Below, piece after piece: positions 10,283-39,578 of a DNA stretch of 64,000 nt. Source of the DNA: Methanomassiliicoccales archaeon (GTDB lineage: Archaea; Thermoplasmatota; Thermoplasmata; Methanomassiliicoccales; JACIVX01). The DNA is taken from contig JBEKKT010000002.1 in assembly GCA_050010535.1 (NCBI GenBank), forward strand, positions 11,247-75,246, read 5' to 3'. The notes under the pieces are model-generated. The model was not told where the DNA came from. It saw only the letters and a program-made list of their open reading frames with translations, and made no database searches. Position 1 is the stretch's first letter; every line of letters begins with the position of its first letter. The translations under genes were made by a program, and so were the position numbers.

Positions 10283-10298
10283 AAAAGGAGGTAGAAGA

Positions 10299-10610: not shown

Positions 10611-10629
10611 AGCCGGAGCTGAGCGCGAT

Positions 10630-10664
10630 CCCTATTGGTCGTCTCTGGAAACAGAGGCGAAGGG
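10630..10664 (+). other. GAAA-tetraloop hairpin downstream of rpl12
   Basis: TCGTCTCTG-GAAA-CAGAGGCGA 9-bp stem (one G-U) plus outer CCCT/AGGG pairing. Confidence 0.4.
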
Positions 10665-10682
10665 GCGGTAGCAGGTGGCGTA

Positions 10683-11054: not shown

Positions 11055-11205
11055 ATAACTATTTTCTAGAGCTCATTCCTCCTAAGTGTCTTGGCGTTCA
11101 CCCAGCACCGACTCCACGGCACCTTCCTAACATGTCGCTGGATGTGTTCGATCCCTCATGCAAAGAAACATTAAATAATCACACTGACTACTTTGCCCGG
11201 TTACC

Positions 11206-20091: not shown

Positions 20092-20166
20092 GCGGCTGTA
20101 GTCTAGTGGTTAGGACTGGAGCTTCCCAAGCTTCAAACTCGGGTTCGAATCCCGGCAGCCGCACCA
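20092..20166 (+). tRNA. tRNA-Gly (anticodon CCC), CCA encoded
   Basis: GCGGCTG/CAGCCGC acceptor stem, anticodon loop TTCCCAA, GGTTCGAATCC T-arm, upstream TTTAAA box. Confidence 0.97.
20151..20164 (+). repeat. att core (tRNA 3' end) CCCGGCAGCCGCAC
   Basis: Identical to 39565-39578. Confidence 0.92.
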
Positions 20167-21345
20167 TCAAGCATATCCAGAGAAATATTTGTCTTTTTCA
20201 ATTAAAGGTTTTATTGCACTTGTAGGGATTTCTTCCTTCCATGCCGAGTAAATCTCCCTAAGTGCCGTGTCCTCTCTCTTCCGGCAATAATAGCCCTCTG
20301 TGGTCTTGGTTGAGCTATGCCCTAACGCAATCGAGACAGACTCAATCTGAACCCCTTTATCTACACAGGTCTGGCCGAAAGTCCTTCTGCAGGCCCTGAA
20401 ATCAAGATCCACTCTAGTTTCTCGCTCCACAATGGACTTCAATTTCCTTAGGCCATTGCCAGTGTAGTAGCCATCCCCTTTGTCCTTCATAGCCGGGAAA
20501 AGTGCCTCATTGAGTGGCGCATAGGAAGACACGATCTCAGCTCTAGCCACCAGGTAACGCCGGATTATCGTCTTGGCTGGTGGAAGGATTGGCACTTTCC
20601 TTTCTTCACCGTATGTTCCCTCTCCCTTAGGATGCTTCACAGTCAGGCTCCAAGAGTCCTTGTCGATATCTCCAACCTTCGCCGTTCTCAGCTCCTTGGT
20701 TCTCAGACCTGTGTTCAGAGCAAGAATGACCAAGGCGTATGCCTGCAATCTTCTCCAGTCGCTAACATTGGAGGCGGTTCGGTATATTGTTTCTAAATCC
20801 GGCACCTCCAATGGAGATTGACGTTTGCTCCTCATCTTTGGCAGCATACTGCCGTATTCCATTCTCATCTTGTCCAGAACAGGATTCCCGCAGAATCGCA
20901 GAATAGACCTCAAAGCTGAAATGTTGTGTGCCTGTCCGCTTTCACTCAGTCCTCTCGACCTCTGAAGACGAAGGTAGGCTGAAATCTCTTTTTCAGTCAT
21001 TCTAGTTGGGTCTGTCGTGTCAATCAGACCCCCTTCCTTCAATGACTGGAAATCCTTAGCCATTCTCCGCATTCTCCTTCTTCGCTCTTTCAAGGTCTCT
21101 TCCGCATAGAGGTTTCCGATTCTGTCGAGGTACTTCGTGGCCCAAGTCAGGAAAGGATAGCGTCCCATTGACCTTCCCTCCCTTGGCCTTCCTCTGTTGC
21201 GCTTCTTGACCACAGAGGCCCTATTGCCGATTGTACTCGGTGCATCGGCAAGCCTCGAAGATACATTGTTGACGCATAACGTAAACTTATCGACCGTTTC
21301 CGAAGCCCCGCCTTGGGCATCCGAGGTCGAAACTTCTGGCTTCAT
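20167..21345 (-). CDS. Tyrosine recombinase/integrase
   Basis: GLRTKELR (R), VKHPKG (K), FRACRRTF, LGHSS, YY; start is 21345 (ATGA overlap with resolvase stop) or 21168. Confidence 0.93.
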   Translation of the reverse strand: MKPEVSTSDAQGGASETVDKFTLCVNNVSSRLADAPSTIGNRASVVKKRNRGRPREGRSMGRYPFLTWATKYLDRIGNLYAEETLKERRRRMRRMAKDFQSLKEGGLIDTTDPTRMTEKEISAYLRLQRSRGLSESGQAHNISALRSILRFCGNPVLDKMRMEYGSMLPKMRSKRQSPLEVPDLETIYRTASNVSDWRRLQAYALVILALNTGLRTKELRTAKVGDIDKDSWSLTVKHPKGEGTYGEERKVPILPPAKTIIRRYLVARAEIVSSYAPLNEALFPAMKDKGDGYYTGNGLRKLKSIVERETRVDLDFRACRRTFGQTCVDKGVQIESVSIALGHSSTKTTEGYYCRKREDTALREIYSAWKEEIPTSAIKPLIEKDKYFSGYA

Positions 21346-26100: not shown

Positions 26101-27036
26101 TTATTCTACTCTAACCTGGGTGTCTCCCAACCCGCAATGCGCAATCAGCCTCGAGACGAGGCTAACGTTATTGCCTTCACTGGCATGAGTCTCGACCCAC
26201 CACCCGTTGCTGAGTTTCATGGCCGCAAAGAAGTCCTTTCCACTGGGATGTCTTGGCGTCTTGCTAATAAGATAACGTTTCTTACCAGGCCCCCAGGGTA
26301 TCATGCTCTCCTTCAGCCTGCCAGTCCTAATGAGTTCTTCAGCAACTATTACAGGAATCTCCTTGGAGTGGGTGTATCCGACTGTCTTACCCAAGAAGAA
26401 GAGACTCTTCTTTGGCCTGGGGAGTGGAGGAGGGGGCACGACTTCAGTGAAGAGGGGTTCAAACTCGAAGATGGATACGGGTCCAGATACGCCGTCTATA
26501 ATATAGGTTCGGAATACCGATGAGACCGTCTCGAATTTCACCGTCTGCTCCACCTCGTTAAGTTCGGGGGTATACTCGTCTATTATGATGGAGAGGATAG
26601 GTTCATTCTCGACGACACTGGAAATGAAACGGTAGACCTCCTCTTTCACACCATTCTTCTCGAATTTGTCCATGATCTGATGGGATGACTTGTATTCGTC
26701 ATAGAAACTGTCGACGAGGGTCTTCCTCGATGAAATATCTCGCCAAGCCTGGCTGAACCGACTCACCTGTGAAATCACATGGTCATGAATGGAATGTGAC
26801 GAAAGTTCAACCTCCACAATCACCCACTTCTTCCTGGATAGGAGAACGACAAAGCCATCTGGTATGCCTTTTGCGCCCTTCTGGCCACGGGGAACGCCTA
26901 TTCTTCTCCCAGGAAAGAAGACCGCATCATTGCCGAATATTCCCTCGGCATTAATCTCCACAAGATCCTGGAGCTCGCTTTCATCTTTGTACTGGTATGG
27001 GCTGTATCGCACTCCATCCTTCATTAGTACCGTCAA
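26101..27036 (-). CDS. PD-(D/E)XK nuclease with extra C-terminal domain
   Basis: ESELQ...IPDG...IVEVEL...QVSRF restriction-like fold; distinct C-terminal domain after a PPPPLP linker. Confidence 0.65.
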   Translation of the reverse strand: MTVLMKDGVRYSPYQYKDESELQDLVEINAEGIFGNDAVFFPGRRIGVPRGQKGAKGIPDGFVVLLSRKKWVIVEVELSSHSIHDHVISQVSRFSQAWRDISSRKTLVDSFYDEYKSSHQIMDKFEKNGVKEEVYRFISSVVENEPILSIIIDEYTPELNEVEQTVKFETVSSVFRTYIIDGVSGPVSIFEFEPLFTEVVPPPPLPRPKKSLFFLGKTVGYTHSKEIPVIVAEELIRTGRLKESMIPWGPGKKRYLISKTPRHPSGKDFFAAMKLSNGWWVETHASEGNNVSLVSRLIAHCGLGDTQVRVE

Positions 27037-27071
27037 TGAACCCCACCTCTGACCTGCTGAGAATTAGTAGG

Positions 27072-27100
27072 TGCCTTTGCAGGATAATAGTTGTGCTTGA
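27072..27100. repeat. 29-bp duplicated module, copy 1 (candidate minus-strand promoter)
   Basis: TGCCTTTGCAGGATAATAGTTGTGCTTGA, 28/29 identical to 28173-28201. Confidence 0.85.
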
Positions 27101-27110
27101 AGATTGACCC

Positions 27111-27259
27111 AGACTCCACATGGATATGGAACTCTCTAGGATTCTTGAGATTCCTGAATACCAGGATACCGCAAATTACTCGATCTCTATGCGACTCTTG
27201 TCAGGAGTTTGAATCGCTTGGACATCCACAGAGTGAGGAGTGACAAGCTTGAGAGCCAT
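27111..27259 (+). pseudogene. Degenerate copy of the 3' end and downstream flank of the type IIG RM gene
   Basis: Aligns by eye to 35535-35685 with two 1-nt deletions and several substitutions. Confidence 0.9.
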
Positions 27260-27282
27260 TTCCCCTGCCTGAAAAGTGAACC

Positions 27283-28146
27283 CTACGGTAAGTATTTCCC
27301 CGCCATCTCTCCGATGCACATCAGGCACATAATGACTGTGAGAGAGTCCTTTTCAGTAAACTTGCTTGTGTCCCTGCCATGCAGGATAGGATGCCTGAAG
27401 TCCTTGCTATATATTTCGCCGCCATATTTCCGATTGAAAGCCTTGTGGCTCCTGTCGGAGAATCCCCAAATCTCCCCGGCTAGGGCAGCCGACGTCCATT
27501 GGACAGGTTTGCCCTTCTTGCCTAAGACTGGTTTACCACTCACCAATTTGACCCTGCTATTGTATAACGGATCAACGATTCCCTTTGCGACACCTATGTC
27601 CCAGACCAGACCCTCGGCTTGTGGGAGCAACACAGAGACTGATGAGACATAATCCCTGTTCTTATGATGCTCTAGTCCCTTGGTGAGGATATCAAGTCGA
27701 TTCCGTGGAATTCTTGATTGACGGAACAACTTCTCTACGTCATTCAGCATGTCGAGTCTTCTAAATACGGCTTTGAGCTCGTCCCATGCAGCCTCAAGGT
27801 TTTCATCTGGTTTGTACCTGTCATAGCATGCAAAGAGGGCGGCTAGTGATAGCGGACCCATCCAATCAAATTCCTTAATAAACATCTCGAACTCAGGGTC
27901 ATTCATCCTTTCAAATTCCTTAAGGAACCCAGGGCTGGCAATTCCTTTGAGGATGCTCGATGCTAGGGAGAAGTCTGGCGGTTCGATATTAGTAAGTCCG
28001 AACTCTGGCGTTCTCAAATTCTGAGAGATCAATTGAATATGCTTCGTCATTTTCTGTATCTGCTTGACCAACGGATGGATGACCTTGTCAATATCGGACA
28101 TCAGCAAGAATGCCCCGTCGTCTTCCTTCTCATTTGTTCTTTCCAA
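27283..28146 (-). CDS. HEPN-like (Rx4H) protein, candidate RNase/Abi effector
   Basis: LLPQAEG helix motif and C-terminal RHPILHG. Confidence 0.6.
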   Translation of the reverse strand: MERTNEKEDDGAFLLMSDIDKVIHPLVKQIQKMTKHIQLISQNLRTPEFGLTNIEPPDFSLASSILKGIASPGFLKEFERMNDPEFEMFIKEFDWMGPLSLAALFACYDRYKPDENLEAAWDELKAVFRRLDMLNDVEKLFRQSRIPRNRLDILTKGLEHHKNRDYVSSVSVLLPQAEGLVWDIGVAKGIVDPLYNSRVKLVSGKPVLGKKGKPVQWTSAALAGEIWGFSDRSHKAFNRKYGGEIYSKDFRHPILHGRDTSKFTEKDSLTVIMCLMCIGEMAGKYLP

Positions 28147-28172
28147 GCATCATCACCACCACTAGTTGTGGA

Positions 28173-28201
28173 TGCCTTTGCACGATAATAGTTGTGCTTG
28201 A
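28173..28201. repeat. 29-bp duplicated module, copy 2
   Basis: TGCCTTTGCACGATAATAGTTGTGCTTGA upstream of the HEPN-like gene. Confidence 0.85.
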
Positions 28202-28377
28202 GGAGTTTGGCAACTCAAAAGCGAGGCGAGATTCTTTATTTTCAGGGACGTGCAAAGGATGTGACGCCATCATCGGGAGGAGCCGAAGACGTCATCGACC
28301 AAGACTTAGTTCGAATTGAGAGTCTGGGCATCTTTAATACAAGGGAAGCCAATAAAGCATACTTGTGGCCATATAAC

Positions 28378-28701
28378 ATGACGCCCTCGTCTCAGCCACA
28401 AACGCCTCACCAACAGGTGAGGTCATTCTGGATTCTGCGATTCTTCGTGAACCGATATAATGAGGAGCCTAGAGAGAAGCCTGTCTTTGTCCATGATGTA
28501 TGTCAATCGGTTCAGAGAATGATGGACGTCACTCTCCGTGATGATGACATAAAGGTATGTGTTACCTTTCTTGCGGATAAAGAATTACTCGAGACACACC
28601 CAGTTGGATACGGCGTTGCCTATCGTATAAGCGAAAAAGGCTTTGAGGAGTTTCAAAAAAGCAGAGGAATCCTATCTACGATCTTACTCTGGCCTCGCTA
28701 G
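28378..28701 (+). CDS. Small wHTH-like protein
   Basis: VTFLADKELLE...YRISEKGFEEF wing motif; ATG 28378 preferred over 28192. Confidence 0.5.
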   Translation: MTPSSQPQTPHQQVRSFWILRFFVNRYNEEPREKPVFVHDVCQSVQRMMDVTLRDDDIKVCVTFLADKELLETHPVGYGVAYRISEKGFEEFQKSRGILSTILLWPR

Positions 28702-29484
28702 GTGGTGTCTAGCTTGCATCCATTCGATCTGATAACCACTCTGAGTTGTCTTGATGAGTGTCGGAGCAATCCATCCCGACTCAAGACTCACCCAATGCTC
28801 CTCGTCAGCTACGTAGTTGAGTGCATCATCGGCAAAACCGACGTCCGAGATTAGTAGGACCTCAAAGAGGTTAGATCCTGCGTCTTTTACCAGTTTTGAG
28901 AGATTCTCCATGAACGTCCTTACATACTCGGCATTAACCATCTCCGTCTTGTTTCTGACCAGCTCAATCAGTACAAGAGAATCTCGCATGTTGATCACTG
29001 CATCAAACGTGTAAGTACCCTTCTTGCCCTTGATGCTGTGGTCGAAATCAACTATCTCTGGGTTCTTGTTTACGGCTCGATCTATTGATGGAAAAATCCT
29101 CCGCAGTTTCCACACGACATCATCCAATAAGCTATCCTTTGAACGAGGCGAAAACTCAAACACCGTGAGGAAGGCATATGATACATATCTTTCGTTCCAG
29201 TCTTTCAGAGCCTGAGCGGCCCGAATGATTCTTCTCCCAGAAAAAATGGCCAATACTATCATGACAATGAAAGTCAAGATGAAGATCTCGTAGAAGTAAC
29301 TCCAATGCGATCCACCGAATGCGAGAAAAGCTGCATAGATGATTGCCAAACCAACCATTATCATAACCCACCAGAGCGTGAATCTGAAAGTGTCGACCAC
29401 ATCGAACACTTTCTTGGCAAGTTCCAGGGCTTCGGTTTGATCTTGTTCCATTGACTCAGTCGAAGTGGCGTTCTTTGGGTTCAT
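28684..29484 (-). CDS. Two-TM membrane protein with C-terminal Mrr-like nuclease domain
   Basis: Two hydrophobic helices, then IKGKKGTYTFDAVI...LIEL...LLISDVGFADDA. Confidence 0.6.
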   Translation of the reverse strand: MNPKNATSTESMEQDQTEALELAKKVFDVVDTFRFTLWWVMIMVGLAIIYAAFLAFGGSHWSYFYEIFILTFIVMIVLAIFSGRRIIRAAQALKDWNERYVSYAFLTVFEFSPRSKDSLLDDVVWKLRRIFPSIDRAVNKNPEIVDFDHSIKGKKGTYTFDAVINMRDSLVLIELVRNKTEMVNAEYVRTFMENLSKLVKDAGSNLFEVLLISDVGFADDALNYVADEEHWVSLESGWIAPTLIKTTQSGYQIEWMQARHHLARPE

Positions 29485-29685
29485 CCCACATCATCGAATC
29501 TTACGATACAGAATGTGGTATAAGGAGGCTGTTGGAACGCCGTTCAAACGCTTCGGATTATTAGTCGATATCTCTAGAATCGGATTCCAACCTGCATCTT
29601 CTATTACCCCCTCCATTCAAGAAAGGAAGGTGATAGAACGAAACACCAATCCGACGTAACCAACACAAATCGAGGTCAAGAGAAT

Positions 29686-29877
29686 GTGAACGCCATCAAA
29701 GTTCTAGATGAAGGACAGAAGGACTTGCTCTGGACGGTTAGCGACAGAAGACCCGAGTCTTACTTTCTTGATGTGGATGGAGGGGGAAGGCTTGTCCTCA
29801 TACTTGAGCAGGCAAAGTGTCTCGGCATCACCGTCCTGCCGAGGATACGTTGCCATCCAATGAAGGGAAGTGCGTGA
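29686..29877 (+). CDS. Possible small ORF coupled to the Cas4-like gene
   Basis: GAGGT upstream; TGA overlaps GTG 29874. Confidence 0.3.
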   Translation: MNAIKVLDEGQKDLLWTVSDRRPESYFLDVDGGGRLVLILEQAKCLGITVLPRIRCHPMKGSA

Positions 29878-30659
29878 CCTTGTCATCACTAACCCCCAGG
29901 GCTATTGTCCCCGTTAGTGCCCTATGCACATATCTGGAAAACCGGGAAGAAGCATACGATAGGTACGTACTTTGCAAAAGGCCGCTCCCTACATCCGCAA
30001 TGATTCAGGGCGACCTAGAGCACATGTCCCGTTATTTTGCGACAGAAGATCTTCAAAAAACGTACTTCACGGCCAAGAATGAGGACGAGCTGAGGAACAC
30101 CTATGCTATCATAAGCGATTCGGTTCAGCGAGCCATAGTGGAATGCGAGAGGAAATACAGCTACCTCGGCTATGATATTGAGCCTATGAGTGGCGAAATC
30201 CTTAACCGCCTTCGAATCGAGGAAGACATCAGAGTTGTAGCTGCAACGAACCTGATGCGGGATGGGGTCAGGGGATTGAATCTAGTGTGCCAATTGCTAC
30301 CTCAACAGGTCGAGCTACCGCTTCGGTCGGAATCATACGGACTTGAGGGCAGATTGGATGCACTATGCTTCACAGGGAGTGCCTACTTTCCAGTGGAGTA
30401 TAAGACTGGGAGGGTGCCAGACGGAAAACCAAGGCTCTCCCACGAGCTACAATTGACCGCATATTGCATGCTGCTCGAAGAAAACCTTCAGACCGTCTGC
30501 CACTACGGAGAGATCTACTACACAAGATACTTCCGCAGGGTTCCCGTCTTCATATCCGACAAGGCAAAAGACGAGGTCTTGGAGATTAGGGACAAATTCC
30601 TCACGACATGCACAGGTTCGTCTGAATTAGTCATTGGCATGGGGGGTTTCGAGATATGA
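29874..30659 (+). CDS. Cas4-like (RecB-type PD-(D/E)XK) nuclease
   Basis: LEGRLD, VEYKTG, QLTAYCMLLEE, GEIYY; no C-terminal CxxC...C cluster motif. Confidence 0.8.
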   Translation: MTLSSLTPRAIVPVSALCTYLENREEAYDRYVLCKRPLPTSAMIQGDLEHMSRYFATEDLQKTYFTAKNEDELRNTYAIISDSVQRAIVECERKYSYLGYDIEPMSGEILNRLRIEEDIRVVAATNLMRDGVRGLNLVCQLLPQQVELPLRSESYGLEGRLDALCFTGSAYFPVEYKTGRVPDGKPRLSHELQLTAYCMLLEENLQTVCHYGEIYYTRYFRRVPVFISDKAKDEVLEIRDKFLTTCTGSSELVIGMGGFEI

Positions 30660-32143
30660 TGGAGGGAGCAGATATGCCTTCAGCAACCCTCGGAAGAATT
30701 GTCCAAACTGAGCATGAGCCTTTGATTATAACTCCCAACATTAAGCGGCTCACTGCCTATGTTGCAGAGTCGCTGAAAGAAAGGGTCGGGGAGAGCTCGT
30801 TTCTTGTTGCCGAGGGAGAAGATGGCGGCCCCGTGCTACTGTGCCGTGTTAAGAGGATTGAAAGCTTTCCTAAAGCGTCGAGCATAATCTTCAGGGCCCA
30901 GTCCGAGTTCGTCACAAGGCTTGAGTTGGAGCCAATTGGACAGATAACCAGTCTTGGCATCAGCCCAATGCCAAATCATGATTTCCACAATTATAAACTA
31001 AGGTGGGCGAGTCCAGACGAATTAAGAGTCTGCTATGGGGTGCCCACAGAAGGTCTTCTCTGCGGAGACCTCATGGCTGACCAGGACACTCCAGTGATAC
31101 CATACAGGGTCCCGAGTGAGCTGTTGTATCGCAGCCTCTTCATTTGCGGAGCGAAGGGGAGCGGCAAGACCACTTGCCTTCGGTCACTATTACCGAACTT
31201 CGTTTGTAAAGATAGCGGTAACATTTCCAACCCCTCCATCGTGATTTTGGACGTTGAGGGCGAATTTTCGCAACAATCAATCGTAAAGAGGTTTGTAGAT
31301 GCTGGAGCTGAGACGAATCTTCGCATCATCTCAACAGACCCGGGCATGGCAACATCGACTCTCAGTCTTCCTCAAGTGCACTATGAACACTTTGCATATT
31401 TCGCTCCTGACTTGCCATTGCCATCGCTTACCGCTCTCGAATCAATCTACAAACAACTGCTGTTCTCATATCGGGAAAGGGGGATCGTTCGCCGTGCCGA
31501 GGACGTTCTAAAGGATATTCGGGAGGCCGCATGGCGTCAACCAGGCATACACACCTCTCAAAGGGAGGCAATCGTGCGAGTAACTATGTCTGGTCTTTTT
31601 TCAATGTTCGACCAGGAGAACCTGCCACCTCTGCTTCCCGAAGATCTCGTCAAACCTGGGAGAGTGTCGATTATTGACGTGAGCTCTCTGACGGACGACC
31701 AGCAAAGAGTTGTCGCACTGTATCTCTTGTCAACATTTGCGACCTACAAGACCAGGTCTCAAGACTCTACTGGGCTCCTGCTAGTGATGGACGAAGCTCA
31801 GAAGCTGTTCCCGCACAGGGGAGACCTCAAGAAAGACTATGCGCACAGACTCGCCAGATTTGTAAGTGGTATAGTCCACCGTGGGCGAAGAAGGAGATAC
31901 GGTGTTGTCCTGGCAACGCAGTATCCTTCTGACGTTTCCAAAGAGGTTGTTGAGCTATGCGATACCAAAATCGTCTTCAAGATGAGTGGGCCAATAGATT
32001 GGCTCAAAATGACCCTCGGTGGTTCAGGATTCGCTCGTTCTGCATCTGAGTTGAGCGTGGGCGAAGCCTATGTTGTCTCAACAGGTCTGAACATCCAGCA
32101 ACCCGCAAGAGTAAGGTTTCCTGCTGTGGAGACGAGCGAATGA
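30656..32143 (+). CDS. HerA/FtsK-family ATPase (DUF87-like)
   Basis: N-terminal beta-rich HAS-barrel-like region, GAKGSGKT, MDEAQ, GRRRRYG, LATQYPS. Confidence 0.88.
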   Translation: MMEGADMPSATLGRIVQTEHEPLIITPNIKRLTAYVAESLKERVGESSFLVAEGEDGGPVLLCRVKRIESFPKASSIIFRAQSEFVTRLELEPIGQITSLGISPMPNHDFHNYKLRWASPDELRVCYGVPTEGLLCGDLMADQDTPVIPYRVPSELLYRSLFICGAKGSGKTTCLRSLLPNFVCKDSGNISNPSIVILDVEGEFSQQSIVKRFVDAGAETNLRIISTDPGMATSTLSLPQVHYEHFAYFAPDLPLPSLTALESIYKQLLFSYRERGIVRRAEDVLKDIREAAWRQPGIHTSQREAIVRVTMSGLFSMFDQENLPPLLPEDLVKPGRVSIIDVSSLTDDQQRVVALYLLSTFATYKTRSQDSTGLLLVMDEAQKLFPHRGDLKKDYAHRLARFVSGIVHRGRRRRYGVVLATQYPSDVSKEVVELCDTKIVFKMSGPIDWLKMTLGGSGFARSASELSVGEAYVVSTGLNIQQPARVRFPAVETSE

Positions 32144-32255
32144 CTGTTTCTATAGTGATTCCTAACCCGATGATCATATCTAGACAGGTTCAAATCTGCC
32201 ACCCCGTAATGTATTGTGTCGATTGCCTAGTCTATTTGCCAGGAGGGATACGACT

Positions 32256-32681
32256 GTGCCAAGGAGAAAGAAGTACAAGGATCCAAGCAAATTGCGGTGT
32301 GTCAACATAGCCAAAAGCCGCATGTACCATAGTAGTGAGGACTGTCGGGAGTGTCCAGACGAAGGGGAGTGCGCCCTAATTCACAGTCCAGTGAAGCACC
32401 ATGTTTCATACAGGGAAAATCGGACTATTAATCTGACACCATCGCAGCATTTTGACCGACATTTCGGGTGTGACAAATGCTATCTCTGCAAGACTGAAGG
32501 AGTTCATAAGAGATATTTCGCACCAGTTGACCCCAGGACTGGAAAAGGATATGGGGACCTCAACAAACACGGGAATCATTCGTGGCCCCACACCGGACGC
32601 TGGATTTTGGTTTGTGACCAGTGCCATCCATCTGCCATTGGATTGCGAATCTCATCGGAAGGTATGAGGGCGACATCCTGA
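32256..32681 (+). CDS. Cys/His-rich protein, possible HNH-like plus Zn finger
   Basis: CRECPDEGEC, HHVSY...NL....H...H, CDKCYLC, CDQCH; GTG start. Confidence 0.5.
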   Translation: MPRRKKYKDPSKLRCVNIAKSRMYHSSEDCRECPDEGECALIHSPVKHHVSYRENRTINLTPSQHFDRHFGCDKCYLCKTEGVHKRYFAPVDPRTGKGYGDLNKHGNHSWPHTGRWILVCDQCHPSAIGLRISSEGMRATS

Positions 32682-32813: not shown

Positions 32814-35669
32814 ATGGGGGCAGTCACCGAGAACACGGTAAATGACCTATTAGCACAATTTCTGCGTGAGAAAGGACTCCACATAGTAACTCAGTACACG
32901 GGGAGAACCCTCCAAGGCAGGAGTCAACCCGATTTCGTTGTTCAGGACTCGGGCCTCGTCTTCGGAGAGGGGGAGTGGGAGTCTTCCTTCATGAAAGGCC
33001 TGAAACAAGCGTATGATTTCGGCTCGCTCGGTGGCGCAAGCGGATCATTTGTGATATCATATCCTGACAGTGCAAAAGAAATCATCAACAGGCGACTCAA
33101 GGACTCAGCAACGCCAGCAACGTTACTCAGAGGAGTCAAGTTGCGGGGTCTCCTATTCATGAAGGATGCCAAGGCTGTGCTCTTCAAAGGGGAAATCGAT
33201 GAGGTTTTTGACTGGCTCAGGAATGGCATCATGCACAAGCCCTGGAAAGAAGATGCTGGAGCCTTTGTGTCTTTAATGAGAGACATCGTAGAAAGTCTAT
33301 CAGGATACCTGCCAACCTCTGGCGACTATCCTACCTTTTTCGAGCACATCATTGCCACAATGCCAAAGGATGCTGGAGAATTAGACACGGCTAAACGGGC
33401 AGCGGCGTATCTCCTTCTGAATCAGATTGTCTTCTATCGAATAATGGGCCAGGCGAGATACGAGCAACTCGAACCAGACAGCATAGAAATTCCATCGGAC
33501 TTACACAGAATTTACTTCAAGAGGGTTCTCGAAGACAACTACGCTGCGGTGTTCCAGAGTGATATTTCTTCCTTGTTCCCTGACAAGGCTCTACCGTTCA
33601 TCAAGGACATGATCACCTATGTGAACGCAATTCAACCTGAGTCGTTCACCCGAGACCTTCTAGGAAGCATCTTCCATGAGTTGATACCGCCGATTGTGAG
33701 GAAGTCCGTGGCAGCCTACTACACAAATCCAGAGGCTGCACGCCTTCTGGCGAAACTGACAATTGAGAAAAATGATGCTGAGGTGGCGGACTTCGCTTGT
33801 GGTTCTGGGACACTCCTAATGGCGGCCTATGACAGGAAGGCTGAGCTTTTGAATGGGGAGTTGACAGAGGTCGACCACAAGAGGTTCTTAGAGAATGAGA
33901 TCACGGGTTGCGACATAATGCCCTTTGCCGCCCACTTGGCCGTGGTCCAACTGGCGTTGAGACACCATTCTTTCCTGACCGACAAGGTGAGAATTGCAGT
34001 GCAGGACTCCACCTCCCTGCTGCCAGGTGTCGTTATAGCACCTCTGGAGTCTTCGATGCCCACAGGTCAGACAAGCCTCGTGTTCTTTGACGACGAAGAT
34101 AGACAGAAGTACATGATAAGAAAGGGTGCGATATCGGGTCGTGGCGAAGGGCACGTCTTCAGGATAGACAATCTGGATGCCGTCCTGATGAATCCTCCGT
34201 TCACGAGGAAGCAACTCATTGGTAAGGAGTATCGGAGAATCCTCACAGACCGTTTCCCAGAGTATTCCGAATACGAGAGCAAAGAGCAGTCTCTGTTTGG
34301 TTACTTCGTGTTCTTGGCCGACCGATTTCTGAAAGTTGGTGGGAGGATGGGGTTCGTCCTACCATCATCGTCCATTCGACAGACAAGTTCGGAAGGTATG
34401 AGAGATCTCATTAGGAGAAAATATGACCTGGAGTATCTGATACTGAGTGGCCATCGAATGGCATTTTCCGAGGACGCCTCATTCAGTGAGATTTTGTTGG
34501 TTGCAAGGAAACGCAAGCCTTCCAGTAAGCCTAAGGAGACCTTCATACTCGCCACAATAAAGGAGAAACCGTCTCTGGACAATGTTGGGTCCTTTGTTGG
34601 CAAGTTGAAAGATGCCTACTCGATGGCTGAATCTGGTTTGCCGTTGAAACATGATGTTTTGAAATCTGATGAGCTTGACATCAAGGTTGGTTTGAGAGCG
34701 GACCTAATGAACGCTGACTGGCTGGCGTTGCTGCCTGGTGAGGAGCTAATCGGAGTGGACGTGTCAAGATGTGTTGGATTCACGAGACTCGTAGACATAA
34801 TCCAAGAAGATGGAATAATCCAGGGGATAAGATTTGAAGGATCTAGCGACTACGTCAACGTCAAGAACACCATCATCTCCAGAAAGAGAGAGGAAAGAAC
34901 GAGGATGAACTGGGAAATCATGGAAGAATCCGAGGAAGGCGTGAAAGCGGTCAACACAAGGAGTGGCGCAGGAGTGAAGGTGCCTTGGAATGTCTTGAAA
35001 CCTGCTGCACGTACACCATCAGGAATGTCAGTGATGGAAATCACCACACCACTCGACTATGCTGTCGAAGACCGATTCCTCAATGACGATTTCTTCTGGG
35101 ATGAGCCTAACCCAGATGCTGTTGTTGCCAAGAGGAAGTCGCATCTCAAGAGCAGAGAGGGGAGATTGCTTATTGCGGGAAGAAATCATATCAACATCAC
35201 CAGCGGAGGCACGTATTTCATAGCTTTTTGCTCCGAGAAGGAAATAGTACCGACATGGAGCTTCTGGTCAGTGAAGTTGGATAACGCTAACGATGCAAGA
35301 ATCCTCTGTCTCTGGTTGAATTCAGTCTACTGTCTATCCAACTTGTACGATTGTAAGATAACGGGTACGGGGGTCTATATCGGATGGCTGAAACCTGACC
35401 TGCTAAAGCTGTTCGTACCAGATATCAGGAATCTTCCCTCTGAGAAGAAGGATGAATTGCTTAGCTTGTTTCGGTATGTGAGTGGTCAGGCATTGCCACC
35501 ACTGCTGCGACAACTGAAGGATGTCAATCAGGTGAGACTCCACATGGATATGGAACTCTCTAGAATTCTTGAGATTCCTGAATACCAGGATACCGCAAGA
35601 TTAATCGACATCTATGCGATTCTTGTCAAGAAGTTTGAATCGCTTGGACATCCACAGAGTGAGGAGTGA
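32814..35669 (+). CDS. Fused type IIG restriction-modification enzyme (REase, N6-MTase, TRD)
   Basis: N-terminal PD...GEGE, motif I DFACGSG, motif IV NPPF, C-terminal specificity-like region. Confidence 0.88.
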   Translation: MGAVTENTVNDLLAQFLREKGLHIVTQYTGRTLQGRSQPDFVVQDSGLVFGEGEWESSFMKGLKQAYDFGSLGGASGSFVISYPDSAKEIINRRLKDSATPATLLRGVKLRGLLFMKDAKAVLFKGEIDEVFDWLRNGIMHKPWKEDAGAFVSLMRDIVESLSGYLPTSGDYPTFFEHIIATMPKDAGELDTAKRAAAYLLLNQIVFYRIMGQARYEQLEPDSIEIPSDLHRIYFKRVLEDNYAAVFQSDISSLFPDKALPFIKDMITYVNAIQPESFTRDLLGSIFHELIPPIVRKSVAAYYTNPEAARLLAKLTIEKNDAEVADFACGSGTLLMAAYDRKAELLNGELTEVDHKRFLENEITGCDIMPFAAHLAVVQLALRHHSFLTDKVRIAVQDSTSLLPGVVIAPLESSMPTGQTSLVFFDDEDRQKYMIRKGAISGRGEGHVFRIDNLDAVLMNPPFTRKQLIGKEYRRILTDRFPEYSEYESKEQSLFGYFVFLADRFLKVGGRMGFVLPSSSIRQTSSEGMRDLIRRKYDLEYLILSGHRMAFSEDASFSEILLVARKRKPSSKPKETFILATIKEKPSLDNVGSFVGKLKDAYSMAESGLPLKHDVLKSDELDIKVGLRADLMNADWLALLPGEELIGVDVSRCVGFTRLVDIIQEDGIIQGIRFEGSSDYVNVKNTIISRKREERTRMNWEIMEESEEGVKAVNTRSGAGVKVPWNVLKPAARTPSGMSVMEITTPLDYAVEDRFLNDDFFWDEPNPDAVVAKRKSHLKSREGRLLIAGRNHINITSGGTYFIAFCSEKEIVPTWSFWSVKLDNANDARILCLWLNSVYCLSNLYDCKITGTGVYIGWLKPDLLKLFVPDIRNLPSEKKDELLSLFRYVSGQALPPLLRQLKDVNQVRLHMDMELSRILEIPEYQDTARLIDIYAILVKKFESLGHPQSEE

Positions 35670-35893
35670 CAAGCTGAAGAGCCATGCCTCCTGGTTTGCT
35701 TCTGCTCCGCTCGATTTCATCTCAATACGTGCGAGTGAATCGGAGGCGTATCGCTTGTGTCTCATTGCTGCCTTGACATCAACACAAACTATAAATTATA
35801 TCTAAATGCTTACTATTAGTGCATAGTACATCATTTAAGTGTATTATTTAACACAAAGATGAAAACCTATTGCACTGGGTGGGTAGAGTCTAC

Positions 35894-36115
35894 ATGAAAG
35901 GGTCGGAAAACTCGGAAGAAAGGATAATTGAGACTCTAAGGCAATTGGGGAAAAGAGCGTTCACAAAGGAGATTGCGAAAAAAGCAAAAATGAGCCAACA
36001 AACCGCATCCAAATATCTGATGACGTTGGAAGCAAAGGGGAAGGTCAAGAAAGACGACTCTCAGCCACCCTATATGTACTGGGAGCTCAAGAATGGAAAA
36101 GACTGGGGAAAATGA
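35894..36115 (+). CDS. Small wHTH transcriptional regulator
   Basis: TKEIAKKAKMSQQTASKYLMTLEAKGKV. Confidence 0.85.
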   Translation: MKGSENSEERIIETLRQLGKRAFTKEIAKKAKMSQQTASKYLMTLEAKGKVKKDDSQPPYMYWELKNGKDWGK

Positions 36116-37199
36116 GTATAGACTAGGAGAATTGACATTCGAGATAACGAGAAAATGCCCTCTAGGTTGCCTTATATGTTCCTCGGATGGGGGTGTGCCC
36201 TACCCTACTGAGTTCCATACAGAAAGAATCAAAGCAATCATTGATGAGTCCGTTCGGCTAGGGACACGGAGGATTGTGCTATCGGGAGGAGAACCCCTGG
36301 CGCACATTGGCGTAATTGAGATATGTAATTTCATAAAGGATAGGGGTTTGGAAGTTGATGTATACACATGTGGCAATCAAAGGGATCCGAACGGCCAGAT
36401 AGTCCCGATTGATGATGAGACATTGCTTCGTCTGAAGAGGGCAGCAATCGGAAGACTGATTTTCAGCATCCATGGCGACAGGCCAGAAATCCATGATCAA
36501 ATCACAAACAGGAAGGGAAGCTATGCAAACCTGTTGAGGTCTATTTCTCTCTCAAAGGAAATAGGACTGAACGCAGAGTTGCATTTTGTACCAACGAGAC
36601 TGAACTACCGGACATTATCCAACATAATGAAGTTGAAGGTTGAAATCGGAATAAACAGGTTGAGTGTTCTTAGATTCGTCCCACAGGGGAGAGGATGGCA
36701 AAACAGGGCTATCTTGGAGCTCGATAAGAATGCAATCATTGAATTGAGAGCAATCATGCATAGGATCAGGTCCGACTGTTCGAGTTTCGAGTTTAGAGTC
36801 GGCGCTCCATTCAATTGCTTCAATCTGGACGGTCCGACACCATGCACGGCAGGAATCGACAAAGCGACAATTAGAGCTGACGGATTGGTGTATCCTTGCG
36901 TAAGCATGAAGAACCTGCCCTATGAAAACAATGGAAACGATCTTGGGAACCTCAGTCTACCAGAGGTTTGGGCCAGGTCAGAGATATTTGCGTATGTCAG
37001 AGAGAGATTGAGCACCGCCTTTGTTAATGGCACATGCTCTGGGTGTGAACATTTGTCAGATTGTGGAGGAGGCTGTCTGTCTCAGAAACTAATTTCCGGT
37101 CTAGCAGAAGCAACCGACCCGTACTGCCCAGTAAAACTGCAGGACCATATCGAGTGTTCTGCCTTTCGTCGGAGCTCGCACGCCATCCCAGTGAGATGA
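36093..37199 (+). CDS. Radical SAM / SPASM domain protein
   Basis: CPLGCLIC, SGGEPL, SPASM CTAG...GLVYPC...CSGC...CGGGC...C. Confidence 0.93.
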   Translation: MEKTGENEYRLGELTFEITRKCPLGCLICSSDGGVPYPTEFHTERIKAIIDESVRLGTRRIVLSGGEPLAHIGVIEICNFIKDRGLEVDVYTCGNQRDPNGQIVPIDDETLLRLKRAAIGRLIFSIHGDRPEIHDQITNRKGSYANLLRSISLSKEIGLNAELHFVPTRLNYRTLSNIMKLKVEIGINRLSVLRFVPQGRGWQNRAILELDKNAIIELRAIMHRIRSDCSSFEFRVGAPFNCFNLDGPTPCTAGIDKATIRADGLVYPCVSMKNLPYENNGNDLGNLSLPEVWARSEIFAYVRERLSTAFVNGTCSGCEHLSDCGGGCLSQKLISGLAEATDPYCPVKLQDHIECSAFRRSSHAIPVR

Positions 37200-38762
37200 G
37201 TGGTTATGCTATCCGTACCTCAAGAAATCAATGACAAAATACTCCTAAAGTGGTTCAAGAAGAATAGTCAGAAAATTGATTTCATCGACAGTGGCTTGGA
37301 GTTTCCAACCCAGGTTACCAGACTAGATAACGAGACGGGACAACTCATAAAGGGATTGGATGAAGAGAAATACCTTCACATGCCAGAAAACATGAAGATT
37401 CTGATTGACCTATGGAAGACCCTGATCGGAGATGCTATAATATTCTTGAAGTCCAAAGATGATAGAGAGCTTTTCCATGATGGTGAAATCTTCGGTATGG
37501 ACGTCCTTGCAAGCATAATGACGGAATTCAAGGAATTTGAGAGACTGCTATATGGAGCAAAATACTCATACAGAGATCATATCGCTCATGTGTTCAGGGT
37601 TTTTCTCACTGGTGAATTCCTGATAAGGAATTATGTTCAGTTTGCCGAGATCTCGGTAGGTGACGATCTTCTGCCCGAGAAAGTATCTCCCGAAGAGAAG
37701 GAGGCAATGTGGTGCATCATGTCATTGACCCATGACATAGGATATGCCTTGGAGGACATCGACACCATAAACCAGAAAATCAGAGATATGATAAAGGAAT
37801 ATGGAAAGGCAAGCGTCCAAGAGCTTACTTATATGTTCCCTCCTCAGAGACATGCCATTGACGATTTTGTTTTGAGATTCATATCATCGAATCTAGTTCC
37901 CCGTTCAAATGATGAAGAAATCGAGCCAGGTTCAAATAATGAAAGAATATCATCGAATCTAGTTCCCCGTTCAAATGATGAAGAAATCGAGCCAGGTTCA
38001 AATTACGAAAAAATCCAGTTCCACACCCACATTCAAACAAAATACTTTATGAAATTCTACAGAGCCTACGAGAAATTCGATCACGGCATCATAAGTTGCA
38101 CTGTCTTAATGAGGGAGTTGGTTTTTTTCCTTGAGTCTGATTTCCTGTTGGATCAGTTTGCGACACTCAATCACAAGAACGCAAGGCAGTTCCTGATAAG
38201 GCAGAATATTCTAAGAGCAATCGCATCGCATAACTGTCCGGACATATACCATCTCCGTGTCAATGACTTCCCGTTCATGTTGATGATTTGTGACGAACTC
38301 CAGGAATGGGGAAGGCCTAGAATGGAGGAGATATTCAAAGAGAGGATTCCAGACCAAGAAGACAAAAAGGTCATGATACTAAACCTCATCAATCTTCCGA
38401 ATGGGCAGTCCGAGGTTTCGTATGAAGTGATTTTCACAAGCAAGAATGCGGATACCAGAGAGGCTACGAAAATGATGTTGACGATTGAAGAATACTTTAT
38501 CACGAAGACGAAGAAATACATAAAGGTACTAAGGAGTGCAGTCGGTGGTGACCTAAGAAATATAAATTTCACTTTTTCAGTAAAAAATAGAAGTCCTATG
38601 AAAGGCAAAGAATCTCATTATCGCTTTGTTTTGAAGCAACCATTGAAGGGCGAAAAAAAGTTGGTGCCAGAATTGTGGCTAGGTCATGTAAAACAGAAGA
38701 GCCTCCAGGAAATCATCAGAAAGCATGAGAAGAAAGTCCATAGATCCAAATATCAAAAATGA
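37200..38762 (+). CDS. HD-superfamily metal-dependent phosphohydrolase
   Basis: YRDHIAH, LTHDIGY, DHG, ASHN, CDELQEWGR. Confidence 0.85.
   Translation: MVMLSVPQEINDKILLKWFKKNSQKIDFIDSGLEFPTQVTRLDNETGQLIKGLDEEKYLHMPENMKILIDLWKTLIGDAIIFLKSKDDRELFHDGEIFGMDVLASIMTEFKEFERLLYGAKYSYRDHIAHVFRVFLTGEFLIRNYVQFAEISVGDDLLPEKVSPEEKEAMWCIMSLTHDIGYALEDIDTINQKIRDMIKEYGKASVQELTYMFPPQRHAIDDFVLRFISSNLVPRSNDEEIEPGSNNERISSNLVPRSNDEEIEPGSNYEKIQFHTHIQTKYFMKFYRAYEKFDHGIISCTVLMRELVFFLESDFLLDQFATLNHKNARQFLIRQNILRAIASHNCPDIYHLRVNDFPFMLMICDELQEWGRPRMEEIFKERIPDQEDKKVMILNLINLPNGQSEVSYEVIFTSKNADTREATKMMLTIEEYFITKTKKYIKVLRSAVGGDLRNINFTFSVKNRSPMKGKESHYRFVLKQPLKGEKKLVPELWLGHVKQKSLQEIIRKHEKKVHRSKYQK
37881..38003 (+). repeat. 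In-frame tandem duplication (66-bp period) in HD gene
   Basis: 57 identical bases at 37881 and 37947; ISSNLVPRSNDEEIEPGSN occurs twice. Confidence 0.95.
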
Positions 38763-39378
38763 CGGGATTCTTGCCGTCCTTACAGGATGCAGAAAGTGCC
38801 CACACTTAGTAGATTCAAGAGATAGGGTCGTCCCAGGATATGGTGAGATACCTGCCGATTTCATGTTTGTGGGCTTGGCTCCAGGAAGAAATGGGGCGGA
38901 CATTACTGGTGTTCCATTCACCAAGGATCCTTCTGGTGTTCTGTTTCAGGAGGCACTTATAAGAGTGGGATTTTCACTAGAAGAGAGTCCTAGAGTCATC
39001 CGTCCGAGATTGAGGGGAGCCTTTGTCACAAACATTGTCAAATGCAACCCGAAAGACATTGATGGTAACAATAGGGCGCCTTCTGTCGAAGAAATAGTAG
39101 CATGCTCTGAGTATTTTGAATCTGAAAAACGCCTTGTCAGTCCCAGGGTGATAATAAGCTTTGGCAAGACTGTGACGGAGTCCCTGCTATCGAGGAGAAT
39201 CGCCAACCTTTCTGACCTTCATGGAATACCTATCCTGCAAGATGGAGTAACATTCTTGCCAATGATTCATCCGTCATTCGTAATAAGAGGTGCTTATGAC
39301 AGAAGACAATACCTCAAAGACTTTGACATAATAACAGACCTCGACCAGCAAGCAACCACTAAGGTTCGGACGAAGTGA
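38725..39378 (+). CDS. Uracil-DNA glycosylase superfamily protein (family 5-like, Fe-S)
   Basis: CRKC, VGLAPGRNGA..TGVPFT, TNIVKCNP, NRAP...C, IHPS. Confidence 0.9.
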   Translation: MRRKSIDPNIKNDGILAVLTGCRKCPHLVDSRDRVVPGYGEIPADFMFVGLAPGRNGADITGVPFTKDPSGVLFQEALIRVGFSLEESPRVIRPRLRGAFVTNIVKCNPKDIDGNNRAPSVEEIVACSEYFESEKRLVSPRVIISFGKTVTESLLSRRIANLSDLHGIPILQDGVTFLPMIHPSFVIRGAYDRRQYLKDFDIITDLDQQATTKVRTK

Positions 39379-39564
39379 ATTGGCCGATTATACTCTACCT
39401 AATTTCCTGGGTTATCGAACCCGTGCGAATGGAAGAGGAAAGGAGACTGTTTCATCGCTGAAAACGAGAAATCTCGAACTTTGATTCGGGACACACCTCT
39501 TTGTTTGACTTTCCTATTGTATTGAAATCAGAAAAAGAATGTCTGGATATGCTCGGGTGTGCGG

Positions 39565-39578
39565 CCCGGCAGCCGCAC
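39565..39578 (+). repeat. Distal att core CCCGGCAGCCGCAC
   Basis: Identical to tRNA 3' end 20151-20164. Confidence 0.92.

What the first reader, a model, noticed from the sequence alone, without database searches (positions are those of the whole stretch)
29874..32143. CRISPR-independent Cas4-like nuclease + HerA two-gene module
Seen: a 4-nt ATGA overlap between the genes. The nuclease has RecB/Cas4 motifs but lacks the Fe-S cysteine pattern, and no cas1, array or nurA is nearby. Known: HerA pairs with NurA in repair and with SIR2 or DUF4297 nucleases in anti-phage systems. Inference: a HerA defence system with a Cas4-like effector, which I do not recognise as characterised.
Basis: partly seen in the sequence, partly recalled or inferred. 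Interest (0 to 1): 0.7.

Follow-up and report, generated by a model that had tools for sequence, protein, structure and literature searches.

The report
Mobile Cas4-HerA nuclease-translocase module
A rare gene module carried by an integrated element of an archaeon pairs a Cas4-type DNA nuclease with a HerA-type DNA pump, plus a membrane-anchored partner and a small regulator; it is conserved or fused in every related locus I could read and is most likely an undescribed variant of the HerA-plus-nuclease systems that destroy foreign DNA, but no function has been tested.

Summary
A Cas4/RecB-type nuclease (29874-30659) and a HerA ATPase (30656-32143) overlap by ATGA. The nuclease keeps all catalytic motifs but lacks the four Fe-S cysteines. 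There is no CRISPR array in the window, and no Cas1 or NurA in the whole 93%-complete genome.

The pair is a real unit. In all 17 distinct related loci with readable upstream DNA, the nuclease sits directly before HerA or is fused to it, usually with a 4-8 nt overlap. The two proteins co-diverge (Mantel r 0.95).

The unit is larger than reported. In 13 of 17 loci a divergent two-helix membrane protein with a degenerate restriction-endonuclease-like domain and a small winged-helix gene go with it.

The family is rare: about 72 clusters among 1.84 billion representatives, and 1 of 401 genomes of the class. It lies on integrative elements beside methylases, HEPN, HNH, Schlafen-like helicases and GHKL ATPases.

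It matches no named system. It is closest in logic to HerA-DUF4297, SIR2-HerA, HerA-NurA and the 'HerA/FtsK capture' systems. The defence function is plausible (about 0.5) but not shown. I rate it a new variant of a known kind.

The parts
28378..28701 (+). Small probable winged-helix protein, about 107 aa from ATG 28378 (the ORF opens at 28192). It lies tail-to-tail with the membrane-protein gene.
   Evidence: BLASTP to the positional equivalent in L030 gives 7e-13. HMM hits in loci not used as seeds range from 1e-11 to 3e-33. Homologues hit Pfam winged-helix families only weakly: HTH_34 1.8e-4, Penicillinase_R 3e-3. Start candidates are listed.
28684..29484 (-). Membrane-anchored partner, 266 aa: a two-helix transmembrane hairpin followed by a C-terminal domain with a degenerate PD-(D/E)XK (restriction-endonuclease-like) fold. 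That domain is probably cytoplasmic, judged from the distribution of positive charges. The gene is transcribed divergently from the nuclease operon.
   Evidence: The hydrophobicity scan finds two TM segments. BLASTP to L016 gives 3e-37. The AF2 model has pLDDT 81. Foldseek hits are weak (best E 9e-4, TM-score about 0.27 over the query): AF1548, and the nuclease domains of Cdn1, Can2 and Bax1. No conserved D...(D/E)xK; only F160 is invariant. A search starting from this protein again led only to loci with Cas4-HerA.
29686..29877 (+). Small ORF of 63 aa. Its stop overlaps the nuclease start as GTGA. It is a shortened version of a 101-119 aa protein that precedes the nuclease in three related loci.
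   Evidence: Sequence. BLASTP to L003 gives 9e-7 over 29 residues. Alignment. Present in L003, L004 and L013 only. Function unknown; this is the weakest part of the module.
29874..30659 (+). Cas4/RecB-family PD-(D/E)XK nuclease, 261 aa, with an intact catalytic site and no Fe-S cysteines.
   Evidence: Family hits. Invariant motifs. PDB profile search: Cas4 8d3l 1.5e-14, Cas4/Cas1 7mi4 6.7e-11. AF2 pLDDT 89.5. Foldseek top hits: Dna2 nuclease domain (TM 0.64), Cas4 of types I-C and I-G, MGME1, ACE1, SSO0001, AdnAB and AddAB.
30656..32143 (+). HerA/FtsK-superfamily ATPase, 495 aa, coupled to the nuclease by an ATGA overlap. A divergent clade.
   Evidence: Pfam DUF87 1.1e-14. Walker A and B. All curated HerA, CedB and CedD equivalogs score far below their cut-offs. 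Best PADLOC hit is mad8 at 3e-20. PDB sequence hits are weak and confined to the ATPase core. About 72 clusters at E<=1e-30 in 1.84 billion representatives.

Best explanation
The core is a two-enzyme machine. I infer that a HerA-type ring translocase uses ATP to thread DNA, most likely from free ends, into a Cas4/Dna2-type nuclease bound to it. This would give processive degradation of linear or nicked DNA.

The module is cargo of integrative mobile elements. In archaea it usually comes with a fast-evolving membrane-anchored protein that has an inactive nuclease fold, and with a small winged-helix protein. I take these to be the targeting or sensing part and the regulator.

The most likely use is to destroy incoming or competing DNA (viruses, plasmids), that is, defence or conflict between elements.

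What the sequences show: the gene order, the overlap, co-divergence, fusions, intact catalytic motifs, the folds, the mobile-element location and the sporadic distribution.

What is inferred: complex formation, action on DNA ends, the roles of the membrane and wHTH partners, and the defence function itself.
For: 1. The pair is obligate. The nuclease is directly upstream of HerA, or fused to it, in all 17 distinct loci with readable upstream DNA. Start and stop overlap by 4-8 nt in nearly all.
2. The pairwise identity matrices of nuclease and HerA correlate: Mantel r=0.945, p=1e-4.
3. Fusions exist. Cas4-HerA occurs as one polypeptide (P0044, P0060). Cas4-X-HerA also occurs (P0039, P0040), with the nuclease profile matching at 4.5e-34.
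4. Catalytic residues are invariant, and the fold is that of DNA-end-processing nucleases that work with motors: Dna2, AddAB, AdnAB, Cas4.
5. Mobile and sporadic. The window copy lies in a low-GC element bounded by tRNA-Gly and an att-like repeat, with an integrase and a resolvase. The family is found in 1 of 401 genomes of the class. Integrases lie next to the module in other loci.
6. Defence-type neighbours: an N6-methylase here; N6_N4 or C5 methylases, HEPN_AbiV, HNH, Schlafen-type helicases and GHKL ATPases elsewhere.
7. Published precedent. HerA with a nuclease or NADase works as anti-phage systems (PMC11291478, PMC11472057). 'HerA/FtsK capture' systems combining an active REase, an inactive REase, HerA/FtsK and a wHTH have been predicted (PMC10853773).
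Against: - No experiment exists, and no member comes from a cultured organism.
- The neighbours are mostly unannotated genes, so defence-island enrichment was not tested statistically.
- Cas4, Dna2 and AddB-type nucleases and HerA are equally typical of repair and recombination.
- The host genome has no HerA-NurA, so a repair role would fill a gap.
- HerA's similarity to anti-phage HerAs is only slightly better than to the repair HerA: 55 against 37 bits in the PDB search.
- The mad8 profile also picks up P-loops of unrelated ATPases.
- Four of 17 loci lack the membrane and wHTH partners.
Confidence: 0.5

Rival explanations
1. This is a DNA-end resection or recombination module serving the mobile element, or the host: a functional replacement for HerA-NurA or AddAB. 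It would be used in replication restart, recombination-dependent replication, or processing of element ends.
For: The nuclease fold is closest to Dna2, AddAB, AdnAB and MGME1, which are repair and replication enzymes. HerA-NurA operons have the same two-gene logic. The host genome has no NurA and no other HerA. One locus sits beside Cas1 and a family-B polymerase, which looks like a casposon, and such elements are known to carry helicases and nucleases (PMC4046053).
Against: A repair function would be expected to be inherited vertically and to be widespread, yet the family is in 1 of 401 class genomes. The conserved membrane anchor, and the fast-evolving partner that correlates only weakly with HerA (r=0.39), are not features of repair machines. 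The neighbours are often RM-like or defence-like.
Confidence: 0.27
2. This is a membrane-associated DNA translocation device for export or import of element DNA, comparable to FtsK/TraB-type or Ced-type systems. The nuclease would process the strand being transferred.
For: HerA belongs to the FtsK/HerA/VirB4 pumping ATPases. NCBIfam CedD (1.9e-10) and CedB (6.6e-6) score about as well as the HerA models. There is a weak Pfam TrwB_AAD_bind hit. A membrane protein is a conserved partner.
Against: The partner has only a two-helix hairpin and nothing resembling a channel. No pilin, VirB6 or CedA-like genes are present in the element. The nuclease-fold domain probably faces the cytoplasm (from the charge distribution). 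Fused and bacterial members lack the membrane partner. All matches to transfer ATPases fall far below their cut-offs.
Confidence: 0.08
3. This is a stand-alone helper of Cas1-type integrases, trimming DNA ends for CRISPR adaptation or casposon integration and acting in trans.
For: The nuclease is a Cas4-family member. In locus L003 a 401-aa Cas1 follows HerA directly.
Against: No Cas1 is found anywhere in the host genome and no array in the window. Cas1 is adjacent in 1 of 17 loci only.
Confidence: 0.05
4. The adjacency is fortuitous or the genes are decaying, so no functional system exists.
For: The small upstream ORF is shortened in the window compared with its homologues.
Against: Both main ORFs are intact with invariant catalytic residues. 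The pair is conserved down to 22-32% identity, and fusions exist.
Confidence: 0.02

Closest known systems
HerA-DUF4297 (Hailibu) anti-phage system
   Same: A HerA ATPase encoded with a PD-(D/E)XK-superfamily nuclease. The best PDB sequence hits of this HerA are 9c1m (deposited only as 'ATP-binding protein') and 8xau; 8xau is the HerA of this system as far as I recall. The published mechanism is assembly-dependent activation of the nuclease by the HerA ring (PMC11291478, PMC12198126).
   Different: The nuclease there is Cap4-like DUF4297, not Cas4/RecB-type, and no DUF4297 model matches here. The HerA similarity is only about 50-55 bits over the ATPase core. That system has no membrane or wHTH partners and is bacterial.
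SIR2-HerA (Nezha)
   Same: A HerA ring coupled to an effector in a two-gene anti-phage operon (PMC11472057). PDB 8j4u, which I take from memory to be a SIR2-HerA complex (the deposited name is only 'Nucleoside triphosphate hydrolase'), is a weak hit.
   Different: The effector is a SIR2 NADase, and no SIR2 is present here.
Archaeal HerA-NurA end-resection complex
   Same: A HerA gene and a nuclease gene side by side, forming a translocase-fed nuclease that acts on DNA ends (PMC12977600). S. solfataricus HerA 4d2i is a weak hit.
   Different: NurA has a different fold. HerA-NurA is linked to Mre11-Rad50, whereas the present module is rare and carried by mobile elements. No NurA in this genome. 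The HerA equivalog models score 28-33 bits against cut-offs of 800-970.
'HerA/FtsK capture' counter-invader systems (Aravind group, PMC10853773; BRC systems, PMC12839542)
   Same: Mobile neighbourhoods combining HerA/FtsK, an active REase-fold nuclease, an inactive REase-fold domain and a wHTH. The proposed mechanism is interception and pumping of invader DNA into the nuclease.
   Different: Those systems are built around an Orc/Cdc6 AAA+ ATPase that carries the inactive REase. None is present here. The inactive fold sits on a membrane protein instead, and the active nuclease is of the Cas4 family, which that paper does not mention (0 occurrences of Cas4 or RecB).
CRISPR-associated Cas4 / Csa1, and solo or mobile-element Cas4
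   Same: The same nuclease family by sequence and fold. More distant members of the module keep the four Fe-S cysteines. Solo and mobile-element Cas4 genes are known to be common in archaea (PMC5704561).
   Different: No cas1, cas2 or array. The partner is HerA, which the Cas4 phylogenomics paper does not mention (0 occurrences). Fe-S cysteines are lost in this subclade. The score is below the TIGR00372 cut-off.
MADS (mad1-8), with its MAD7-MAD8 ATPase-nuclease module
   Same: The best PADLOC hit of HerA is mad8 (3e-20), and the neighbouring methylase hits mad2 (1.7e-17). MADS contains a second ATPase-nuclease pair (PMC13662399).
   Different: The nuclease does not hit mad7, and no other mad genes are present. 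The methylase is not conserved with the pair in other loci. The mad8 profile also matches unrelated P-loops.
Dna2, AddAB/AdnAB and RecBCD nuclease-motor enzymes
   Same: The same nuclease fold, fed by an ATP-driven motor. Dna2 is the top Foldseek hit, TM 0.64.
   Different: The motor there is an SF1 helicase in the same polypeptide or complex. Here it is a HerA/FtsK-type ATPase, expected to form a ring by analogy with solved HerAs.

Membership tests
Cas4 family (RecB-like PD-(D/E)XK nuclease) | Catalytic motifs D...(D/E)xK plus QxxxY, and sequence or profile membership | tested here: met
   D162, E175-x-K177 and Q193/Y197 are conserved. Pfam Cas_Cas4 24.4 bits against a cut-off of 22.7, Csa1 28.0 against 27. 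PDB Cas4 8d3l 1.5e-14. Cas4 and Dna2 folds lead the Foldseek list.
Cas4 family (RecB-like PD-(D/E)XK nuclease) | Four-cysteine Fe-S cluster (N-terminal Cys plus C-terminal CxxCx5C) | tested here: not met
   Absent in the window protein and its six closest homologues. Present in L015, L016, L019, L024, L025, L031, L034, L035 and in the fusions.
CRISPR-associated Cas4 (equivalog TIGR00372 / adaptation module) | Score above the curated cut-off, and linkage to cas1/cas2 or an array | tested here: not met
   TIGR00372 scores 53.3 bits against a cut-off of 65. No Cas1 in the genome. No array in the window.
HerA/FtsK superfamily ATPase (Pfam DUF87) | DUF87 domain above threshold, Walker A and B, arginine-rich segment and sensor Gln | tested here: met
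   DUF87 scores 55.5 bits against a cut-off of 23.2. GAKGSGKT, LLVMDE, RGRRRR and Q422 are invariant.
HerA-NurA repair complex | NurA partner, and HerA equivalog score | tested here: not met
   No NurA in the genome. HerA_Thermprot scores 32.8 bits against 800, helicase_HerA 27.7 against 970.
HerA-DUF4297 (Hailibu) / SIR2-HerA (Nezha) | DUF4297 or SIR2 effector next to HerA, and anti-phage HerA equivalog score | tested here: not met
   No such PADLOC or Pfam hit for any neighbour. HerA_antiphage scores 40.2 bits against a cut-off of 800.
MADS | Eight-gene mad1-8 operon | tested here: not met
   Only partial hits to mad8 and mad2. NCBIfam MAD2 scores 28.7 bits against a cut-off of 720. No mad7 hit for the nuclease.
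HerA/FtsK capture systems (PMC10853773) | Orc/Cdc6 AAA+ ATPase with an inserted inactive REase, alongside an active REase, HerA/FtsK and a wHTH | tested here: not met
   Active REase-fold nuclease, inactive REase-fold domain, HerA and a probable wHTH are present. No Orc/Cdc6 protein lies in the module or next to it. I conclude the working logic is similar but this is not a member.
Anti-viral defence system (functional class) | Protection against virus or plasmid on expression; enrichment in defence islands | not testable with these tools
   Only qualitative context is available: methylases, HEPN_AbiV, HNH, SLFN-type helicases and GHKL ATPases near several loci.

The most novel reading that the evidence does not exclude
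This is a previously unrecognised immune system found in archaea and in at least one bacterium. A HerA ring feeds DNA ends into a Cas4-type nuclease. In archaea a fast-evolving protein with an inactive nuclease fold holds the machine at the inner face of the membrane, where foreign DNA enters. It would be a functional counterpart of RecBCD/AddAB-type exclusion in organisms that lack those enzymes, and a reservoir of Cas4 nucleases outside CRISPR.
Probability: 0.3. Interest if true: 0.75.

Novelty: new variant of a known kind. Interest (0 to 1): 0.55.

Why it matters
Cas4 is known as a CRISPR adaptation nuclease, and 'solo' Cas4 genes are common in archaea without an assigned role. HerA is known with NurA in repair and with SIR2 or DUF4297 in bacterial immunity.

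An obligate Cas4-HerA partnership would do three things:
- give one class of solo Cas4 a concrete context;
- add a third nuclease family to the HerA-effector theme;
- supply an archaeal, membrane-linked example of the predicted 'HerA/FtsK capture' logic.

The single-polypeptide bacterial homologues make the idea testable in ordinary laboratory hosts. If the module turns out to be a repair device carried by mobile elements, it would instead show how elements supply end-resection functions to hosts that lack HerA-NurA.

Tried and rejected
- Is the neighbouring 951-aa methylase part of the system, as a MADS-like reading would suggest from the mad2 and mad8 hits? Rejected. The methylase is not conserved next to the pair in other loci. 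The nuclease does not hit mad7. The mad8 profile also matches unrelated P-loops.
- Viral packaging ATPase reading. Rejected: no capsid genes in the element, none of 20 candidate stretches in IMG/VR encoded a relative, and the protein is a 495-aa ATPase of HerA size and DUF87 type.
- Scan of GTDB representative genomes by motif pattern. It gave only one extra archaeal locus. The pattern method is insensitive, so absence is weak evidence.
- Terminal inverted repeats around the Cas1/PolB locus L003, looked for to decide whether the module lies inside a casposon. Nothing convincing in the 12 kb held.
- Profile of the membrane partner against PDB sequences. Only noise, from de novo designed helical proteins.
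- Pfam on the small ORF, the 155-aa ORF, the HerA N-terminal 135 residues and the fused N-domain. No hits.
- Literature searches for a described Cas4-HerA pair. None found. The published MADS paper was not in the library, so the fold of MAD7 could not be checked.
Full report
**Anatomy in the window**

The region lies in a low-GC stretch (0.44-0.50, against about 0.55 in the flanks). The stretch begins at tRNA-Gly(CCC), 20092-20166. It is followed by a tyrosine integrase (20167-21345, minus strand) and a serine resolvase. An imperfect copy of the tRNA 3' end lies at 39552-39578. The target genes are therefore cargo of an integrated element of about 19.4 kb.

Genes of the module:
- Nuclease ORF: opens at 29817. 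Conservation with homologues begins about 10 residues after the GTG at 29874. That GTG overlaps the stop of an upstream small ORF as GTGA. I accept 29874-30659, 261 aa.
- HerA: 30656-32143, overlapping the nuclease stop as ATGA.

**What the two proteins are**

The nuclease:
- It matches Pfam PDDEXK_1, Csa1 and Cas_Cas4 above their thresholds.
- It matches many PADLOC Cas4 models, down to 3e-16.
- It matches solved Cas4 structures by profile: 8d3l 1.5e-14, 7mi4 6.7e-11.
- An AlphaFold2 model from 13 homologues is confident (pLDDT 89.5). It superposes best on the Dna2 nuclease domain (TM 0.64). Next come type I-C and I-G Cas4, MGME1, the Argonaute-associated Cas4-family protein ACE1, SSO0001, and the AdnAB and AddAB nuclease domains.
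- E49-H50, D162, K177, Q193 and Y197 are invariant. Position 175 is always Glu or Asp.
- The four Fe-S cysteines are missing in the window protein and its closest relatives.

HerA:
- It has the DUF87 domain, Walker A (GAKGSGKT), Walker B (LLVMDE) and an invariant Arg-rich segment.
- It is very divergent. Every curated HerA, CedB or CedD equivalog scores 25-40 bits against cut-offs of 600-970. Solved HerAs match only over the ATPase core, at 22-55 bits.

**Is the pair real?**

HerA has only 14 relatives in the 5.8-billion-protein word index. A full HMMER scan of 1.84 billion representatives finds about 72 clusters at E<=1e-30.

I collected loci through three routes: HerA, the representative hits, and, independently, the membrane partner. 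In all 17 distinct loci with readable upstream DNA, a Cas4-family nuclease lies immediately before HerA or is fused to it. The HerA start overlaps the nuclease stop by 4-8 nt in nearly every split case. Pairwise identities of the two proteins across 12 loci are tightly correlated (Mantel r=0.945, p=1e-4).

Three architectures occur:
- Split nuclease without Fe-S cysteines plus a short HerA: the window, L001, L003, L004, L013, L029, L030.
- Nuclease with four cysteines plus a HerA carrying an extra N-terminal Cas4-like domain. That domain has lost the acidic residue of the (D/E)xK motif: L015, L016, L031.
- True fusions: Cas4-HerA (P0044, P0060) and Cas4-X-HerA (P0039, P0040), with intact nuclease motifs.

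One fusion lies in a 5.9-Mb genome that has bacterial ribosomal protein L9 and lacks archaeal S3Ae. The family therefore appears to cross domains, provided that assembly is not a mixture.

**The unit is larger than two genes**

- Membrane partner. In 13 of 17 loci a divergently transcribed gene encodes a protein of 250-320 aa with a two-helix membrane hairpin and a C-terminal alpha/beta domain. Its AF2 model (pLDDT 81) resembles PD-(D/E)XK-fold proteins only weakly (best Foldseek E 9e-4): AF1548, and the nuclease domains of Cdn1, Can2 and Bax1. No catalytic triad is conserved, so it is probably non-catalytic. From the charge distribution I infer that the domain faces the cytoplasm.
- wHTH gene. 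A gene of about 100 aa lies beside the membrane-protein gene, tail-to-tail with it in all but one of these loci. Its products are homologous across loci and probably winged-helix.
- Reciprocity. A search seeded with the membrane protein recovered only eight proteins. The two new loci examined again carry all four genes.
- The membrane partner diverges much faster than HerA and follows it only loosely (r=0.39).
- Small ORF. It directly precedes the nuclease in four loci. The window copy is shortened.
- Four loci, including both fusion loci that I could inspect, lack the membrane and wHTH genes.

**Distribution and context**

The family is absent from 400 other genomes of the same class. None of the 60 close relatives has a member; the single hit (G013, 2.7e-11) is a distant HerA. 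The host genome has no Cas1 and no NurA.

Most neighbours are unannotated. The recognisable ones are:
- integrases (3 loci besides the window);
- N6_N4 or C5 methylases;
- HEPN_AbiV;
- a UvrD-type helicase;
- HNH nucleases;
- Schlafen-group helicases (2 loci);
- GHKL ATPases similar to ATPase-containing restriction enzymes (2 loci);
- in one locus, Cas1 plus a family-B DNA polymerase, which looks like a casposon.

In the window the pair is followed by a Cys/His-rich 155-aa ORF and a 951-aa N6-adenine methylase with Eco57I-, PglX- and mad2-type similarity. The methylase is not conserved with the pair elsewhere.

**How it most likely works**

By analogy with HerA-NurA, HerA-DUF4297 and the motor-nuclease enzymes whose nuclease domain it shares (Dna2, AddAB), I infer three steps. 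HerA forms a ring. The nuclease docks on it. ATP-driven translocation feeds DNA into the nuclease.

The fusions, the co-divergence and the translational coupling support a physical complex, but this was not modelled or measured.

I judge defence or conflict between elements the most likely use (about 0.5), for four reasons: the mobile-element location, the extreme patchiness, the defence-type neighbours, and the presence of a fast-evolving non-catalytic partner plus a wHTH. This is the component set predicted for 'HerA/FtsK capture' systems (PMC10853773).

The main rival, at about 0.27, is an end-resection or recombination function for the element or for a host that lacks HerA-NurA. Membrane DNA transfer, help for a Cas1-type integrase, and chance adjacency are less likely.

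**Comparison with what is known**

The module is not a member of HerA-NurA, Hailibu, Nezha, MADS or the Orc/Cdc6-based capture systems. In each case a defining partner was looked for and not found (see the membership table).

The Cas4 phylogenomics paper does not mention HerA. The two HerA/FtsK capture papers do not mention Cas4 or RecB. I found no paper describing the pair. The search covers only open-access texts, so a description elsewhere cannot be excluded.

I classify it as a new variant of a known kind (HerA ATPase plus effector nuclease). Interest is moderate. The principle is familiar, but three things are new and testable: the Cas4 partner, the conserved membrane-anchored protein with a degenerate nuclease fold, and the series of fusions.

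**Limits**

- All relatives come from metagenomes.
- Neighbour genes were called by a simple ORF heuristic in several loci.
- Defence enrichment is qualitative only.
- The taxonomic names of the hosts are hidden.

Noticed in passing
window 27111-27267 and 35535-35693: A direct repeat of about 160 bp (91-98% identical) brackets an 8.4-kb segment. That segment holds a 287-aa gene, the four-gene module, the 155-aa ORF and the methylase. The upstream copy duplicates the methylase 3' end. This suggests that cargo was exchanged by recombination at methylase genes.
   Followed up: partly
window 27067-27103 and 28168-28204: A 37-nt repeat (89% identical) lies just upstream of the starts of two minus-strand genes (26101-27036 and 27283-28146). 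It may be a shared promoter element.
   Followed up: no
window 32214-32681: A 155-aa Cys/His-rich ORF lies between HerA and the methylase. By eye it contains HH...N...N...H and CxxC patterns reminiscent of an HNH nuclease, but there is no Pfam or PADLOC hit even at E=1. It could be the restriction partner of the methylase.
   Followed up: partly
window 29465-29659: An ORF in another frame resembles the N-terminal half of the 102-119 aa small protein of L003 and L004, while 29686-29877 resembles the C-terminal half. The small gene may have been split or truncated in this element.
   Followed up: partly
window 35870-39378: A cassette of wHTH, radical SAM/SPASM, a 520-aa unannotated protein and a family-4 uracil-DNA glycosylase lies downstream. 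It includes a 66-bp in-frame tandem duplication at 37881-38012. It is the subject of another finding of this scan.
   Followed up: no
L003 4206-10905: A 401-aa Cas1 lies immediately after HerA, and a 910-aa family-B DNA polymerase lies 3 kb further on. This is a casposon-like neighbourhood. No terminal inverted repeats were found in the 12 kb held.
   Followed up: partly
L032 (genome G430) 623-11527: In what is probably a bacterial genome, the Cas4-X-HerA fusion protein (1017 aa) is followed by a GHKL ATPase, a Schlafen-type helicase, two unknown proteins and an SF1-like helicase. This looks like a defence island.
   Followed up: partly
whole genome G000: The 93%-complete host assembly has no NurA, no Cas1, and no HerA other than the one on this element.
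   Followed up: partly
L015 4102-6474, L016 2857-5139, L031 3603-5969: The HerA proteins of these loci carry an N-terminal Cas4-like domain. It keeps the Fe-S cysteines and the motif II Asp but has V/I-W-K/R in place of (D/E)xK. It is an apparently inactivated second nuclease domain, present besides the separate active nuclease.
   Followed up: partly
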